Part shown: piece by piece, positions 8,630 through 24,981 of the stretch
Numbering within the stretch: the stretch's first letter is position 1
Layout of the letters: each line of letters starts with the position of its first letter
IMG/VR virus record: IMGVR_UViG_3300032287_001974
Coordinates: 1 to 64,000 of that record
Length of the DNA stretch: 64,000 nucleotides
Source of the DNA: a virus
Strand: one strand, 5' to 3'
Program-made: the position numbers and the translations under genes
Notes under the pieces: generated by a model
Told to the model about the DNA's origin: nothing
Databases searched by the model: none
What the model saw: the letters and a program-made list of their open reading frames with translations, nothing else

Positions 8630-8992
8630 ATGTTTGAAAAAGTAAAGGCAATAGTAGAAATAAAGGTTGGCGATGACCTTGTACAGGCCATTTATATAAC
8701 TGACCTTGACAAAGCCCGCCACTGGCTAATTATTGCCGAGAACCCTGTGCTTATAGTTGAGGTCACAGGTATGGCCTGGGAACCTGCACGCGGCGCTCGC
8801 TGGACCGGCACAGAATTTGAATCGGTGACGCACCACCTACTTCTCCCAGATATGCTGTATTTTGCTTTTGTGGTGGACGGTGTATGTGTGTATGTTGAGT
8901 TGCTAGACCCCTCTTTCACAGAAAAAGCGGCCGTTGCTGCGGCTTATAGAACCGGACCGAGTTTTGAGGTGCACTATGGTCGACCTGAGTGA
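8630..8992 (+). CDS. Putative fibre chaperone, copy 1
   Basis: GARWTGTEF motif; leaderless start 6 nt after TATACT; modules shared with 22350..22739. Confidence 0.55.
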   Translation: MFEKVKAIVEIKVGDDLVQAIYITDLDKARHWLIIAENPVLIVEVTGMAWEPARGARWTGTEFESVTHHLLLPDMLYFAFVVDGVCVYVELLDPSFTEKAAVAAAYRTGPSFEVHYGRPE

Positions 8993-9260
8993 GTGGGAAA
9001 AGTACAAGGCTAACCCCGAAGAGTATTCTAAATCGCTTGTGGAGTCTAGAGCGGGCGAAGTAAGCAAAGAATCTAGGCCCTGGGACTTCCTTAATCCCCA
9101 CACTGAATACGTCTCTAAAGAAGAGGCGGCTATCCGCTTAGACATCTGTAAGTCATGCCCCGAACTTATACAGAGTTTATTGCAGTGTAAAAAGTGCGGC
9201 TGCTTTATGAAAGCCAAAACTATGATTAAGCATTCTGAGTGTCCGCTGCATAAATGGTAA
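8976..9260 (+). CDS. Small Cys-rich (DUF6171-like) protein, copy 1
   Basis: RLDICKSCPEL...QCKKCGCFMKAKT...CPLHKW; ATG at 8976 has a GAGGT RBS. Confidence 0.75.
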   Translation: MVDLSEWEKYKANPEEYSKSLVESRAGEVSKESRPWDFLNPHTEYVSKEEAAIRLDICKSCPELIQSLLQCKKCGCFMKAKTMIKHSECPLHKW

Positions 9261-21259: not shown

Positions 21260-21796
21260 ATGGCAAGGACTATATATACGGACCTTACGGCCACTGGTCG
21301 TACATTTACCGCCGCTACCTTCTCAGGTAACCTTTCTGGAACCATAAACAGCATTACTATCTCCGGCACATCTAGCACAACCATGACGCTGCCTTCTACT
21401 ACGGCAACTATTGCTAGAACTGACGCGGCTCAGACCTTTACAGGAGTGCAGACGTTTAATGGAAACGTCATTTACCACATTGCTACAAACGCCCAAACCG
21501 CGTCCTACACCCTTGTTTTAGCGGATGATGGAAAAATAGTTGAAGTCAGCAACGCATCTGCTAACACCGTGACTATTCCATTGAACTCCGCGGTTGCTTT
21601 TCCTGTAGGAACTCAAATTACCGTTATTCAAACAGGCGCTGGACAGACAAGCTTTGCAGTTACTGCTGGTGTGACTCTTAACGCTACCCCACAAGCAACC
21701 GCAAACACCGCAAAGCTTCGTGCCCAATGGTCCTCAGTAACCCTACTCAAGCGTGACACAAATATTTGGGTTGCCATGGGCGATTTGACGTTCTAA
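21260..21796 (+). CDS. Fibre-associated protein
   Basis: SYTLVLADDGK...FPVGTQITVIQ...LRAQWSSVTLLK...W...GDL domain. Confidence 0.7.
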   Translation: MARTIYTDLTATGRTFTAATFSGNLSGTINSITISGTSSTTMTLPSTTATIARTDAAQTFTGVQTFNGNVIYHIATNAQTASYTLVLADDGKIVEVSNASANTVTIPLNSAVAFPVGTQITVIQTGAGQTSFAVTAGVTLNATPQATANTAKLRAQWSSVTLLKRDTNIWVAMGDLTF

Positions 21797-22332
21797 TGGC
21801 TATAAGTGGCGGTATTGCCGCGGGAGCAGGGAAAGAGCCTGACAGGCCTACGTCTGTGTCAGCCACGGCCGGTAATGCCTCAGCAACCGTCTCCTTTACA
21901 GCTTCCACCCATAAGGGCAAAGGAAACTCAATTGCTACGTATGTAGCTACCTCTTCCCCTACAGGAATAACTGGCACTAGCTCAACTTCACCAGTTACTG
22001 TTAACGCTCTGTCTAACGGTACTGCCTATACTTTTACTGTTGTAGCCAATGCAACCTACGGGGCTTCAACTATAACTAGTGCGGCATCAGTTGCAAGCAA
22101 CTCTGTTACCCCAGTAGCCCCAACTACCACTACTACCACTACTACCACGACAACTACAACCACCACAACCACCACAACCACTGCGGGAACTACCGCAGCC
22201 CCTAACTACAAACGTTGTACTTCTGCCCAAGTTTCTGTGGGTTGTTGTACGAGCACAAGCTGCTGTGTCGTAGGTGGTGGCGGTGTTTCTTGTGCTACCC
22301 CATCTTGTGGTGGTACGCTAACTTGTTTCTAA
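21796..22332 (+). CDS. Fibre-tip protein: FN3 domain, poly-Thr linker, 8-Cys C-terminal knot
   Basis: PDRPTSVSATAGNASATVSF...LSNGTAYTFTVVA FN3; 20 Thr codons; TAATG overlap places the start at 21796. Confidence 0.8.
   Translation: MAISGGIAAGAGKEPDRPTSVSATAGNASATVSFTASTHKGKGNSIATYVATSSPTGITGTSSTSPVTVNALSNGTAYTFTVVANATYGASTITSAASVASNSVTPVAPTTTTTTTTTTTTTTTTTTTTAGTTAAPNYKRCTSAQVSVGCCTSTSCCVVGGGGVSCATPSCGGTLTCF
22123..22182 (+). repeat. ACN x20 poly-threonine tract
   Basis: 20 consecutive Thr codons with mixed third positions. Confidence 0.9.
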
Positions 22333-22349
22333 GATGTTAGGATTTATAT

Positions 22350-22739
22350 ATGCTTACTGATGCTGATCTAGAGTTTGTGCACCAAGGCACTAATGGGGTT
22401 GCACTAGTTTGGGTTATTGACGAACAGTGCCTCTATGATTTGCCGCTATCTGTAGAGCACGCGTTTATCTTTCAAGAAGCGGACGAGGTGCTGGACGTAT
22501 CGGAAGACTACTCAGACCACGACGGCATTACAGTGGAGTTCCGTAAAAATGGCGTGACCCTAGAAACCCTGCAGACAGGTGAGTACTTCGGCAGTATTTT
22601 GCTAAGTAACCCTTTGGTATTAGACCTGCATCAGTACCCTTACGGACTGTACGTAAGCTCCCCAGACGCACTATTCCAAAACGGTGAGTTTGTTATACTT
22701 GACCACGACGTAACAGGAGAGGACCCTTTCTATGAGTAA
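22350..22739 (+). CDS. Putative fibre chaperone, copy 2
   Basis: Modules shared with 8630..8992; leaderless start 6 nt after TGTTAGGAT. Confidence 0.55.
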   Translation: MLTDADLEFVHQGTNGVALVWVIDEQCLYDLPLSVEHAFIFQEADEVLDVSEDYSDHDGITVEFRKNGVTLETLQTGEYFGSILLSNPLVLDLHQYPYGLYVSSPDALFQNGEFVILDHDVTGEDPFYE

Positions 22740-22962
22740 GAGTCGCTGGGAGCAGTACAAAGAAAAAAATGGCGTTACTCCTCTAGATTTGTTAAACCCT
22801 AAAACCATAAAAATTGATCTCACTGCCGCAACCGCGCGAATGGATATCTGTAAAAGTTGTCCAGAACTTATAGGTCTTACCCACCAGTGCAAAAAGTGTG
22901 GGTGCTTCATGGACGTTAAAACTAAGCTAGAGGCGGCTAAATGCCCTCTCGGCAAGTGGTAG
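22732..22962 (+). CDS. Small Cys-rich (DUF6171-like) protein, copy 2
   Basis: RMDICKSCPEL...QCKKCGCFMDVKT...CPLGKW. Confidence 0.8.
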   Translation: MSKSRWEQYKEKNGVTPLDLLNPKTIKIDLTAATARMDICKSCPELIGLTHQCKKCGCFMDVKTKLEAAKCPLGKW

Positions 22963-24008
22963 CGACTACTCGCTGGGACGAGTATAAAAAGAAGCACGGC
23001 GTTACGTCGCCTCTTAAGTACCCAATTGCAATGGCGCAGATTGACCCTAATGGGCTCTGCAACGTTGGCTGTTGGTTTTGCCCTGTAGGCTACGCGCCTA
23101 ACCCCGAAGTAGGCAAAAAGAACATGCCCATAGAGGTTCTTGACAGCATCCTTAAGCAGCTACACGAGGGCAAAGGTAGTTTTGTTTCTCGCGGCTTTGA
23201 TTTTATATACACCGCTCATTACAACGAGGTCCTGCTGTACAGGCACTTTGAAGAGATGTTGGCCCTCTTTCGAAAGTACGGGTTTAAAACAATGATCCTT
23301 ACTAATGGGACCCCCCTTACCCCGGCTAAGACAGACATCATAAAACAGTACCCTGATGTCGTATATGGTATTTGCTTTAATACTCCCTCAGCAAACCAAG
23401 AACGCTGGTCCAAGGCTGTAGGAATGAACGAAAAGATATTTGCCAAGCTTCTTTCTAATATTAGCTACGCTATCGAACAACTCCCTGAGATGTTTGAGAC
23501 CAAGCGCCTATCGATCCAAGTAAACGGCCTCAATAAAATGTCGTTGTTTGAGTATGGTGGTTGGATAGATAAACTACAGAACGCTCCAGAAATAGACCTA
23601 GACCCAGAAACGGGCTCCCTTGCTACAGAGGTTGCTGAATTTGAATCCCTATTCCCAGGCATGCAGGTGTACGGTATGCCAAGCCTTATTGATCGAGCAG
23701 GGCACCTAGACAAACATGGGGTTATAACTAACGCTCGTGCTATTGAGTCCTACAGCAAGGGCGACAAGACTCGTGTAGTGGGCTGTGGCAACGGCAAGGA
23801 GGTCGGCGGTAGACCTAATGGGTGGCTGCACGTAAACGCTAATGGTGACGTATTTATCTGCTGTAACGATTATGACTTTGAAAGTACATTTGCTAACGTT
23901 GCAGATAAGCCTTTAAAGGATATCTGGCACGGCTCAGAGCACACCACTATGATACAGCAAGCCTACGACACTATATGTAGGACCTGCTCAGCTGCAATTT
24001 GGGAGTAA
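22956..24008 (+). CDS. Radical SAM protein with SPASM/Twitch domain
   Basis: CNVGCWFC (CxxxCxxC); YNEVLL; LTNGT; C...WLHVNANGDVFICCND...KDIW...CRTC; start is GTG 22956 or ATG 22941. Confidence 0.9.
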   Translation: MVATTRWDEYKKKHGVTSPLKYPIAMAQIDPNGLCNVGCWFCPVGYAPNPEVGKKNMPIEVLDSILKQLHEGKGSFVSRGFDFIYTAHYNEVLLYRHFEEMLALFRKYGFKTMILTNGTPLTPAKTDIIKQYPDVVYGICFNTPSANQERWSKAVGMNEKIFAKLLSNISYAIEQLPEMFETKRLSIQVNGLNKMSLFEYGGWIDKLQNAPEIDLDPETGSLATEVAEFESLFPGMQVYGMPSLIDRAGHLDKHGVITNARAIESYSKGDKTRVVGCGNGKEVGGRPNGWLHVNANGDVFICCNDYDFESTFANVADKPLKDIWHGSEHTTMIQQAYDTICRTCSAAIWE

Positions 24009-24009
24009 C

Positions 24010-24981
24010 GTGGCAAGCATATTTATTCAACTAGCTTCATACCACGACTATGAGCTCCCCGGCACTATCTTAAACGCGCTAGAGATGTCATCGGGTAATC
24101 ACCAGATTAACTTTGGGGTTCACCACAACTACTACGAAGTAGACGATATCTTGATTCCAAATATCTCTAACGTAAAGGCCACTATAAGCAAGGCCCCCCA
24201 CAATCTAGGTATGGGCATTAGCAGAGAGATAGCGCATAACTTCTACTGCGGTGAAGACTACTATATGCAAGTAGATGCTCACACTAGGTTCAGAGAGAAC
24301 TGGGACAATAACTACATAGTCGAGATTGATTACTACAGGTCATTAGGGTTTGAGAAGCCGCTGCTGACAACCTATCCCAGAAACTACTGGTACACAGACG
24401 GCAAGATGGAGCACGATGAGGGCTGGGCAATCAGCTGCATTAGCTTTGAGGAAGATAAAGAACGGTTTGCAACCTTAAGGGTTCCTTCTCAAATGGCCTG
24501 GAGCAACCCCAAGGGAAACGTATTTAGTCGGTCCGTGTCGGGCGGCTCCATATTTACTGTAGGGCCCTTCTTTGTCCCCAACAGGCGCACACACTCAGTT
24601 GGTGAAGAGATTTTAATAGCTGCAAGGGCTTATACCCACGGGTATGACTTGCTCGTACCGAGACAGAACCAGTTGTCTCACCTTTATTACGACCACACTA
24701 AGGCGGGCGTAAACGGGCGACGTTTGGTTTGGCAAGACTTTCCTGAGAAGTCAAGTGACTTTGAAAAAATAGGGCTTGAGGAGGTTCAGTCCATATTTAA
24801 AAACAATGTCATAGGCGACCAAGGGTTTGGTACTGAACGAACTCTAGAAGAGTTTGAGGTGTTTGCTGGGTTGGATTTTGCCTCGGGAGCAGTAATTGCT
24901 AGGGAGGACGCCGGGGTTGAGACCAGACTCGCTGAGCTTTCTTGCCCAGTAGGGTTTTGGAACCCACTCTTGCGTCAATAG
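24010..24981 (+). CDS. GT60-like polypeptide N-acetylglucosaminyltransferase
   Basis: SIFIQLASYHD, SR...Y.GEDYYMQVDAHTRF..NWD (DxH), GEEI...ARAYTHGYDL, HLYY and G..RTL.EF..F.G.DF motifs of the Gnt1/GlcNAc family. Confidence 0.8.
   Translation: MASIFIQLASYHDYELPGTILNALEMSSGNHQINFGVHHNYYEVDDILIPNISNVKATISKAPHNLGMGISREIAHNFYCGEDYYMQVDAHTRFRENWDNNYIVEIDYYRSLGFEKPLLTTYPRNYWYTDGKMEHDEGWAISCISFEEDKERFATLRVPSQMAWSNPKGNVFSRSVSGGSIFTVGPFFVPNRRTHSVGEEILIAARAYTHGYDLLVPRQNQLSHLYYDHTKAGVNGRRLVWQDFPEKSSDFEKIGLEEVQSIFKNNVIGDQGFGTERTLEEFEVFAGLDFASGAVIAREDAGVETRLAELSCPVGFWNPLLRQ

What the first reader, a model, noticed from the sequence alone, without database searches (positions are those of the whole stretch)
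22732..23015. Shared N-terminal peptide on the small Cys protein and the radical SAM enzyme
Seen: adjacent unrelated proteins begin with near-identical peptides, SKSRWEQYKEKNGVTPL (22732) and TTRWDEYKKKHGVTSPL (22956). The other Cys protein has SEWEKYK at its N-terminus (8976). Inference: a transferable W-x-x-YK docking or leader helix recruits different enzymes to a common partner (chaperone or fibre) and so physically links the rSAM to the pathway.
Basis: partly seen in the sequence, partly recalled or inferred. Interest (0 to 1): 0.72.

Follow-up and report, generated by a model that had tools for sequence, protein, structure and literature searches.

The report
Zinc-ribbon protein's helix copied onto enzyme
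A short tryptophan/tyrosine helix that marks the start of a very common small zinc-ribbon protein of uncultured phages has been copied onto the neighbouring radical SAM enzyme in one small lineage, where it probably acts as a tether, but it is not a tag shared by many enzymes.

Summary
The 76-aa Cys protein (22732-22962, Pfam DUF6171) and the overlapping radical SAM/SPASM enzyme (22941-24008) both start with R-W-[ED]-x-Y-K-x-K-x-G-V-T-(S)-P-L. That is 10 of 14 residues and 76% of nucleotides identical. A second DUF6171 (8976-9260) carries S-E-W-E-K-Y-K. W[DE]xYK occurs nowhere else in the six-frame translation of the window.

The peptide is the most conserved part of a large DUF6171 subfamily of uncultured phages: 120 of 120 close homologues have it, and more than 599 IMG/VR stretches match. 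Selection acts at protein level.

On the rSAM it is rare, seen in 8 of the 120 listed homologues. Seven form one clade. Only W-x-x-Y is kept, followed by a variable linker. No IMG/VR locus has it, and no other enzyme carries it.

What does move between enzymes is the whole DUF6171 module. It sits next to fibre genes, usually after a p22350-like gene. It lies directly upstream of, or is fused to, 2OG oxygenases, glycosyltransferases or rSAMs.

Best reading: about 15 codons of the DUF6171 5' end were grafted onto the adjacent rSAM and kept as a tethered docking helix. The partner is unproven; the p22350-like protein is the best candidate. The same stretch was noted twice in this scan.

The parts
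22350..22739 (+). p22350-like 129-aa acidic protein. It has no Pfam or PHROG match. Its stop overlaps the DUF6171 start. It is the candidate partner of the peptide.
   Evidence: Searches found no family. Homologues lie directly upstream of DUF6171 in 54 of 80 DUF6171-centred loci. By unique sequence, 62 of the 63 DUF6171 proteins with a p22350-like gene upstream carry the helix.
22732..22962 (+). DUF6171 zinc-ribbon protein no. 1, 76 aa. It has six invariant Cys and ends in G-K-W.
   Evidence: PF19668 scores 31.1 bits against a cut-off of 27, and phrog_13558 gives E = 3e-17. There are 745 homologues. The AF2 model has pLDDT 93.4.
22744..22785 (+). Helix-1 peptide of DUF6171 (R-W-E-Q-Y-K-E-K-N-G-V-T-P-L).
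   Evidence: It is present in 120 of 120 close homologues. The mean majority fraction is 0.92 for residues 4-23, against 0.81 for the Cys core and 0.42 for residues 24-35. Third codon positions vary freely. AF2 predicts a helix at residues 5-13, pLDDT 86-91.
22930..22933 (+). GAGG Shine-Dalgarno-like motif 7 nt upstream of the rSAM ATG at 22941.
   Evidence: Read from the sequence. The alternative ATG at 23031 has no such motif.
22941..24008 (+). Radical SAM / SPASM enzyme, 355 aa. C-x3-C-x2-C lies at residues 40-47.
   Evidence: Radical_SAM scores 37.9 bits and SPASM 43 bits. The AF2 model has pLDDT 91.2. The nearest folds are BtrN, DesII, SuiB, anSME, SkfB and CteB.
22971..23015 (+). Copy of the helix-1 peptide on the rSAM N-terminus (R-W-D-E-Y-K-K-K-H-G-V-T-S-P-L). 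A short linker follows before M-A-Q-I-D-P-N-G.
   Evidence: (19.7 bits, E = 5e-5). AF2 predicts a helix at residues 11-18 with pLDDT 55-75 for residues 1-30.
24010..24981 (+). GlcNAc-type glycosyltransferase (PF11397), the last gene of the cassette.
   Evidence: It is conserved directly after the rSAM in most loci. GT-rSAM fusion proteins exist.
8976..9260 (+). DUF6171 protein no. 2. Helix 1 (S-E-W-E-K-Y-K, 8988-9008) is separated from the R-P-W-D-F-L-N-P core motif by a linker of about 25 residues.
   Evidence: 57% identity over the core. The N-terminal profile scores 13 bits, in two pieces.
8630..8992 (+). 120-aa protein upstream of DUF6171 no. 2. It occupies the same position as p22350 but is not detectably related to it.
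   Evidence: BLASTP gives E = 0.48. The p22350-family HMM scores 3.5 bits.

Best explanation
The shared peptide is 'helix 1' of a phage DUF6171 zinc-ribbon protein. DUF6171 is a small accessory protein encoded beside tail-fibre genes, usually just after a p22350-like gene. It lies directly upstream of, or is fused to, whichever protein-modifying enzyme the phage carries: a P4H-type 2OG oxygenase, a GlcNAc-type, GT2 or GT61 glycosyltransferase, or an rSAM-SPASM enzyme. It therefore behaves like an adaptor module for these enzymes. In the lineage of this phage, about 15 codons from the 5' end of a DUF6171 gene were copied onto the 5' end of the adjacent rSAM gene. The direction of transfer is shown. 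Since then only the two aromatic residues (W-x-x-Y, then K or L) have been kept, at the end of a variable polar linker. From this I infer that the rSAM uses the copied helix as a flexible tether. The tether would bind the same site that DUF6171's helix 1 binds, keeping the enzyme in the DUF6171 complex. The partner is not identified. The p22350-like protein is the best candidate, and the DUF6171 core itself is a second one.
For: Direction and origin. The motif is in 134 of 152 DUF6171 ORFs and in 120 of 120 close homologues. It is in only 8 of the 120 listed rSAM homologues. It is in none of 83 rSAM loci from IMG/VR. The rSAM version falls within DUF6171 diversity: R-W-D-E-Y-K occurs in L148 and K-H-G-V-T-P in L101. 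The two genes are adjacent and overlap. Age. The DNA is 76% identical, with 4 synonymous changes. The extension is present in homologues at 66-80% identity, and 7 of the 8 form one clade with aLRT 93. Constraint. W and Y are invariant in 8 of 8 while neighbouring positions and the 19-31-residue linker diverge. In DUF6171, selection is at protein level. Separable module. Helix 1 is absent from about 12% of DUF6171 proteins and is joined to the core by linkers of 0 to about 25 residues. Translation. GAGG lies 7 nt before ATG 22941, and no Shine-Dalgarno motif precedes ATG 23031. Adaptor role of DUF6171. It is fused N-terminally to PF11397 GTs, a GT2-like enzyme and a PF13640 oxygenase. A 739-aa ORF (L083) combines a divergent DUF6171-like N-terminus, an unidentified region and the rSAM. 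Downstream neighbours are variable enzymes. Partner hint. 62 of the 63 DUF6171 proteins next to a p22350-like gene carry the helix. The G-V-T-P-L flavour that the rSAM copied is the p22350-associated subtype.
Against: About 110 of the 120 listed rSAM homologues work without the extension, so it is dispensable for catalysis. AF2 places helix 1 of DUF6171 with high confidence (pLDDT 86-91). In DUF6171 it may therefore be part of the fold rather than a free docking element. On the rSAM the helix has low confidence (55-75), which could reflect flexibility or simply a shallow alignment. Thirty helix-bearing DUF6171 proteins have no detectable p22350-like neighbour, so p22350 cannot be the universal partner. 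The eight extension-bearing rSAMs represent only about four independent lineages. The tree needs at least two events, because P0024 sits apart. I could not fetch the genomic context of the other extension-bearing rSAMs.
Confidence: 0.55

Rival explanations
1. Neutral leftover. The extension is a by-product of a rearrangement at the DUF6171/rSAM gene boundary. It is translated but has no function, and W-x-x-Y persists only through shared ancestry.
For: Most rSAM homologues lack it. It is confined to one small clade plus P0024. AF2 confidence is low on the rSAM. Everything except W-x-x-Y has decayed.
Against: W and Y are invariant in 8 of 8, while flanking positions show 3-5 different residues and the linker is unalignable. 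The frame stays open, and every homologue has its own start codon a few residues before the W.
Confidence: 0.2
2. Modification or recognition site. The conserved DUF6171 N-terminus is itself the acceptor or recognition peptide of the neighbouring enzymes, in the manner of a leader or of a Skp1-type site. The enzyme-borne copy would then be a pseudo-substrate or cis-activating peptide.
For: The layout is an ultra-conserved N-terminus, a hypervariable 12-mer and then a Cys-rich region, next to an rSAM-SPASM. Pro17, in the motif [T/R/K]-P-[L/W]-D, is the only N-terminal residue invariant across 42 diverse DUF6171 proteins. The commonest neighbours are P4H-type 2OG oxygenases (24 of 80) and PF11397 GlcNAc transferases (10 of 80). 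From established knowledge, these are the two enzyme types that modify a T-P-E proline of Skp1.
Against: The part shared with the rSAM is W-x-x-Y, not the Pro motif, and P0011 and P0014 have no Pro in the equivalent place. The Cys region is conserved rather than variable and folds as a confident globular domain. DUF6171 is naturally fused to the N-terminus of the enzymes. No RRE domain, protease or exporter is present. Only 6 of 80 DUF6171 loci have an rSAM next door.
Confidence: 0.12
3. Not a protein feature of the rSAM. Translation starts at ATG 23031, and the similarity upstream is a DNA or RNA-level fossil or a regulatory element between the two genes.
For: Several homologues are annotated as starting at M-A-Q-I-D-P-N-G. 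An open stretch of 30 codons is not rare by chance.
Against: GAGG lies 7 nt before ATG 22941, and no Shine-Dalgarno motif precedes ATG 23031. The changes between the two copies are synonymous or conservative. In seven other homologues the in-frame extension keeps W-x-x-Y with its own ATG. In DUF6171 the conservation is at amino-acid level, not nucleotide level.
Confidence: 0.05

Closest known systems
RiPP recognition elements (PqqD-like RRE domains) of RiPP pathways
   Same: Both are small accessory modules that occur free-standing just upstream of post-translational modification enzymes or fused to their N-terminus. The enzymes are of unrelated classes and include rSAM-SPASM enzymes. Both tie the enzyme to its target.
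   Different: DUF6171 is a six-Cys zinc-ribbon-like fold with no PDB match. Foldseek found nothing and the best VIA Z was 2.7. It is not a winged helix. No leader-bearing precursor peptide is identified. The shared element sits on the enzyme and the adaptor, not on a substrate. No binding has been shown.
Docking / COM domains of NRPS and PKS assembly lines, and short linear motifs generally
   Same: Both are short terminal helices with two or three key residues, tethered by a variable and probably disordered linker. Both are thought to hold separately encoded enzymes together.
   Different: Docking domains work as complementary pairs on successive enzymes. Here the same helix sits on two proteins, which implies a shared third partner or competition for one site. 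This comparison is inference only.
Pfam DUF6171 (PF19668) / phrog_13558
   Same: The two small Cys proteins of the window are members. They score above the Pfam gathering threshold.
   Different: The Pfam model matches only the Cys core (profile positions 31-80). The W-x-x-Y-K helix and the P-L-D-L-L-N-P motif belong to a subfamily of uncultured phages. They are missing from the cultured Synechococcus phage homologues I read. The family has no described function, and no paper in the library mentions it.
Skp1 prolyl-hydroxylation and GlcNAc pathway (PhyA P4H plus Gnt1), and phage fibre-modification cassettes noted earlier in this scan
   Same: The enzyme types next to DUF6171 are the same: PF13640 oxygenases and PF11397 GlcNAc transferases.
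   Different: This is a phage tail-fibre setting with an added rSAM-SPASM enzyme. The acceptor is unknown. This comparison bears on the cassette rather than on the shared peptide.

Membership tests
DUF6171 (PF19668) / phrog_13558 | Profile match above the curated threshold | tested here: met
   Protein 22732 scores 31.1 bits and protein 8934 scores 31.6 bits, against a cut-off of 27. phrog_13558 gives E = 3e-17 and 3e-15.
DUF6171 (PF19668) / phrog_13558 | Conserved Cys pattern C-x2-C ... C-x2-C-G-C ... C-P | tested here: met
   C40, C43, C53, C56, G57, C58, C71 and P72 are invariant in 42 diverse members.
Radical SAM / SPASM enzymes | C-x3-C-x2-C cluster motif and a C-terminal SPASM domain | tested here: met
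   C-N-V-G-C-W-F-C lies at residues 40-47. Radical_SAM scores 37.9 bits against 29.5, and SPASM 43 bits against 21.5. The fold matches BtrN, DesII, SuiB and anSME.
RiPP system with leader peptide and RRE | A PqqD-like RRE domain on the enzyme or as a separate protein | tested here: not met
   Pfam finds no RRE or PqqD in the rSAM, DUF6171 or p22350. The rSAM has only about 30 residues before its core. DUF6171 matches no PDB fold.
RiPP system with leader peptide and RRE | A precursor with a conserved leader and a variable core that is the enzyme's substrate | tested here: inconclusive
   DUF6171 has a conserved N-terminus and a variable 12-mer, but its Cys region is conserved and globular. Whether it is a substrate was not testable.
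Tethered docking helix / short linear motif | A few invariant residues in a short helix joined to the domain by a linker of variable length and sequence | tested here: met
   On the rSAM, W and Y are invariant in 8 of 8 and the distance from W to the core is 19-31 residues. In DUF6171 the linker is 0 to about 25 residues and helix-less forms exist.
Tethered docking helix / short linear motif | Demonstrated binding to a defined partner | not testable with these tools
   Only single-chain prediction was available. The one hint is co-occurrence with the p22350-like protein.
   The only non-DUF6171 hit among 8051 ORFs is this rSAM. A loose regex on 2089 ORFs gave no other convincing case. The 'longer' search returned only whole-DUF6171 fusions.

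The most novel reading that the evidence does not exclude
The W-x-x-Y helix is a portable docking tag of an undescribed phage system for tail-fibre modification. In this reading a p22350-like protein and the DUF6171 zinc ribbon form a scaffold on the nascent fibre. Interchangeable enzymes (P4H, glycosyltransferases, rSAM) are recruited to it by fusion, by coupled translation or, in this lineage, by carrying the adaptor's own helix. This would be an enzyme-borne counterpart of the leader/RRE logic of RiPP pathways.
Probability: 0.25. Interest if true: 0.65.

Novelty: new variant of a known kind. Interest (0 to 1): 0.42.

Why it matters
DUF6171 is one of the commonest small proteins in uncultured freshwater-type phages, with more than 599 IMG/VR stretches and 745 clusters, and it has no known function. 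This analysis ties it to a recurring cassette: fibre gene, p22350-like gene, DUF6171, then a variable modifying enzyme. It also shows natural DUF6171-enzyme fusions, which gives a testable role as an adaptor for virion-protein modification. The copy of its N-terminal helix on the rSAM is a natural experiment. It singles out two residues (W12 and Y15 of the rSAM, W6 and Y9 of DUF6171) as the likely contact. It also provides a 15-residue bait for finding the partner. If the helix is functional, it shows how phages can rewire which enzyme joins a modification complex by moving a very short piece of a neighbouring gene.

Tried and rejected

(2) I tried to reach those contigs in other ways. The search for related loci with P0014 and P0024 in IMG/VR returned only extension-less relatives. 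P0014 in JGI metagenomes did the same. Two degenerate DNA patterns for 'W-x-x-Y ... M-A-Q-I-D-P-N-G' in IMG/VR gave 0 hits.

(3) blastn of the region against GenBank phages gave no match. tblastn with DUF6171 found only homologues below 60% identity, in Synechococcus, Stenotrophomonas, Xanthomonas and Variovorax phages. The two I read lack helix 1.

(4) p22350 and p8630 show no detectable homology to each other. The 'same chaperone twice' idea is therefore not supported at sequence level.

(5) p22350 has no Pfam, PHROG or ESM-Atlas lead.

(6) DUF6171 has no PDB fold match by Foldseek or VIA wide.

(8) A programmed frameshift producing a DUF6171-rSAM fusion was considered. I set it aside because the 22-nt overlap contains no slippery heptamer (by eye).

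(9) The antisense ORF 22671-22997 also reads G-V-T-P. This is trivial, because GGNGTNACNCC is its own reverse complement.

(10) The representative-library search found no further cluster in which the match reaches the peptide. P0287, whose match starts at query residue 13, has an unrelated CxxCxxCC-type N-terminus.

(11) Literature searches for DUF6171 and for phage rSAM-SPASM with tail fibres found nothing relevant.
Full report
**Observation**

The window is the first 64 kb of an 85.6-kb phage-like contig. ORF 22732-22962 (76 aa) overlaps ORF 22941-24008 (355 aa) by 22 nt. Both begin with the same short peptide. In the first it is R-W-E-Q-Y-K-E-K-N-G-V-T-P-L (22744-22785). In the second it is R-W-D-E-Y-K-K-K-H-G-V-T-S-P-L (22971-23015).

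Ten of 14 residues and 32 of 42 nucleotides are identical. There are four synonymous changes, four conservative changes and one extra codon. A third ORF (ATG 8976 to 9260) starts M-V-D-L-S-E-W-E-K-Y-K.

W[DE]xYK occurs three times in the six-frame translation of the window, only at these three N-termini. I built a 23-column profile of the first protein's N-terminal motif from 120 homologues and searched all 1880 six-frame ORF pieces of the whole genome. It scored the rSAM N-terminus at 19.7 bits (E = 5e-5) and the third ORF at 13 bits (E = 0.006). The next hit scored 5 bits.

**What the genes are**

- The two small Cys proteins are DUF6171 (PF19668, above threshold; phrog_13558). They are 57% identical over the Cys core.
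- The 355-aa protein is a radical SAM enzyme with a SPASM domain. Its model is confident (pLDDT 91.2). The nearest solved folds are BtrN, DesII, SuiB, anSME, SkfB and CteB.
- The next gene (24010-24981) is a PF11397 GlcNAc-type glycosyltransferase.
- The gene before DUF6171 (22350-22739) has no family match.
- The rSAM start at ATG 22941 has GAGG 7 nt upstream. The alternative ATG 23031 (M-A-Q-I-D-P-N-G) has no such motif. The peptide is therefore most likely translated.

**The peptide within DUF6171**

All 120 listed homologues (70-86% identity, out of 745 hits) carry S-[R/K]-W-x-x-Y-K-E-K-N-G-V-T-P-L-D-[L/M]-L-N-P. Residues 4-23 are the best conserved part of the protein. Their mean majority fraction is 0.92, against 0.81 for the Cys core and 0.42 for residues 24-35.

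Across 58 distinct DNA versions, the third codon positions of Gly, Thr, Pro, Leu and Asp vary freely while the residues stay fixed. Selection therefore acts on the protein.

In more distant members the N-terminus splits into two parts. The first is an aromatic-x-x-aromatic-K helix. The second is a [T/R/K]-P-[L/W]-D-x-x-N-P motif whose Pro is invariant. The two are joined by 0 to about 25 residues.

About 12% of the DUF6171 ORFs in the loci lack the helix altogether (18 of 152). So do the homologues in the cultured Synechococcus phages QB2 and S-MbCM6. Helix 1 is thus a separable, optional N-terminal element.

AF2 models DUF6171 with pLDDT 93.4. It predicts a helix at residues 5-13 (pLDDT 86-91) and a short one at 17-20. 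The fold has no PDB match.

**The peptide within the rSAM family**

Among the 120 listed homologues of 475, about 110 begin only 9-25 residues before the first cluster Cys, typically M-x-x-Y-K-I-S-M-A-Q-I-D-P-N-G.

Eight carry an extension with W-x-x-Y: the window's own cluster (P0001), P0002, P0003, P0004, P0007, P0011, P0014 and P0024. W and Y are invariant in all eight and are followed by K, L or I. The rest has drifted beyond alignment, and the distance from W to the core is 19-31 residues. Only P0001, P0024 and P0002 still score against the DUF6171 N-terminal profile.

A quick maximum-likelihood tree of the catalytic cores places seven of the eight in one clade (aLRT 93). That clade is sister to extension-less P0005, P0006 and P0010. 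P0024 sits elsewhere, so at least two events are needed.

No rSAM in 83 IMG/VR loci has the extension, and two pattern scans found none. In the 1.84-billion-protein representative library, every other cluster matches from query residue 23 or later. The exception is P0287, whose N-terminus is unrelated.

AF2 predicts a helix at residues 11-18 of the rSAM, but pLDDT is only 55-75 for residues 1-30. The extension is therefore old and not private to this genome, yet it is confined to a small lineage. The direction of transfer was DUF6171 to rSAM.

**Is it a tag on different enzymes?**

It is not. Among 8051 ORFs from the genome and about 165 related loci, the only non-DUF6171 ORF matching the N-terminal profile is this rSAM. 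A loose regex over the first 30 residues of 2089 other ORFs of 100 aa or more gave no other convincing case.

I searched the 5.8-billion-protein database for longer proteins containing residues 1-40. Six came back, and five of them are whole DUF6171 domains fused N-terminally to enzymes. Two are fused to PF11397 glycosyltransferases, two to a GT2-like enzyme and one to a PF13640 2OG-Fe(II) oxygenase.

**Context**

rSAM-centred loci show a conserved cassette: fibre-like gene, p22350-like gene, DUF6171, rSAM, then GT. One 739-aa ORF (L083) combines a divergent DUF6171-like N-terminus, an unidentified region and the rSAM.

The 80 DUF6171-centred loci were taken from more than 599 IMG/VR stretches. 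In 54 of them a p22350-like gene lies upstream. The downstream gene varies:

| Downstream neighbour | Loci (of 80) |
|---|---|
| PF13640 oxygenase | 24 |
| PF11397 GT | 10 |
| rSAM-SPASM | 6 (5 of this family, 1 of another type) |
| GT61 | 1 |
| DUF7164 | 1 |
| Small or unknown ORFs | 12 |
| Unrelated genes (RNR, two GNAT acetyltransferases, DNA methylase) | 4 |
| Fibre-like gene | 1 |
| None detected | 21 |

These counts are not de-replicated.

By unique sequence, 62 of the 63 DUF6171 proteins with a p22350-like gene upstream carry helix 1. Thirty helix-bearing ones lack such a neighbour, and these are mostly the L-G-E-T-R-P-W subtype (L042 was reassigned by hand). The rSAM copied the G-V-T-P-L flavour, which is the p22350-associated subtype.

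**Mechanism**

Three things are shown:
- the peptide's identity as DUF6171 helix 1;
- its copying onto the rSAM in one lineage;
- the retention of W-x-x-Y.

It is also shown that DUF6171, not the bare peptide, is the module combined with different enzymes.

The rest is inferred. The rSAM-borne helix is probably a flexible tether that binds the same site as DUF6171's helix 1 and so stabilises the enzyme in the DUF6171 complex. The p22350-like protein is the leading candidate partner. My confidence in this reading is about 0.55.

There are three rivals:
- a neutral leftover of a gene-boundary rearrangement (0.2);
- a modification or recognition site, by analogy with leader peptides or the Skp1 T-P-E site, given the invariant Pro and the P4H and GlcNAc-transferase neighbours (0.12);
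- an untranslated fossil (0.05).

**Comparison with known systems**

The closest functional analogy is the RRE/PqqD accessory domain of RiPP pathways, which is free-standing or fused to unrelated enzymes. However, no RRE is present and DUF6171 has a different, unmatched fold, so this is not a member of that family. The helix-plus-linker anatomy resembles docking domains and short linear motifs, but no partner has been demonstrated. The small proteins are members of Pfam DUF6171, for which I found no literature.

**Limits**

- Only single-chain structure prediction was available, and model coordinates could not be inspected.
- The tree is a quick search.
- The locus counts include near-duplicates.

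Noticed in passing
window 22941-24981; proteins P0271, P0282, P0322, P0343, P0363, P0247; loci L073, L074: This rSAM family occurs as natural fusions with glycosyltransferases. A PF11397-like GT lies N-terminal in P0271, P0282 and P0322. GT2-like N-termini occur in P0343 and P0363. An unidentified domain of about 330 aa is fused to the rSAM in P0247, L073 and L074. The best fold matches are BtrN and DesII, which act on sugar-type small molecules. Together these suggest that the rSAM may act on the glycan added by the GT rather than forming Cys thioethers.
   Followed up: partly
loci L086-L165 (DUF6171-centred): The gene directly downstream of DUF6171 is most often a P4H-type 2OG-Fe(II) oxygenase (PF13640, 24 of 80). 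Next come a PF11397 GT (10) and rSAM-SPASM enzymes (6). The gene slot after DUF6171 looks like an exchangeable enzyme position.
   Followed up: yes
window 22350-22739 and 93 ORFs in related loci: The p22350-like protein forms a sizeable family of acidic 130-160-aa proteins. They always lie between a fibre gene and DUF6171, and they have no Pfam, PHROG or ESM-Atlas annotation.
   Followed up: partly
alignment A1 (42 DUF6171 proteins); window 22780-22782: Pro17, in the motif [T/R/K]-P-[L/W]-D, is the only N-terminal residue invariant across all DUF6171 subtypes, including the helix-less ones. Given the P4H and GlcNAc-transferase neighbours, it could be a hydroxylation or glycosylation site.
   Followed up: no
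window 22671-22997 (- strand): The 108-aa antisense ORF also reads G-V-T-P opposite the peptide. The same occurs in many related loci. This is because GGNGTNACNCC is its own reverse complement, so it is an artefact and not a gene.
   Followed up: yes
loci L127, L130, L131 (3995-4222 and 5149-5391); L013, L015, L021, L056 (minus-strand copies): Several phages carry two DUF6171 genes. One has helix 1 and lies next to the fibre and p22350-like genes. The second is helix-less (for example M-S-D-D-V-K-P-W-D-L-F) and lies elsewhere.
   Followed up: partly
L167 about 2535-2725 (Synechococcus phage S-MbCM6, KJ019063.1): An unannotated DUF6171-like ORF lies directly after a gene whose sequence looks like a 2OG-Fe(II) oxygenase. 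That assignment is by eye and was not checked against Pfam. It suggests the pairing of DUF6171 with modifying enzymes may extend to cultured T4-like cyanophages.
   Followed up: partly
window 21766-22332; L024 3-731: The fibre-associated FN3 protein has a run of about 20 Thr before a Cys-rich tail. A relative has P-T-T-T-T-A-A repeats. These look like mucin-type acceptor regions for the GT.
   Followed up: no
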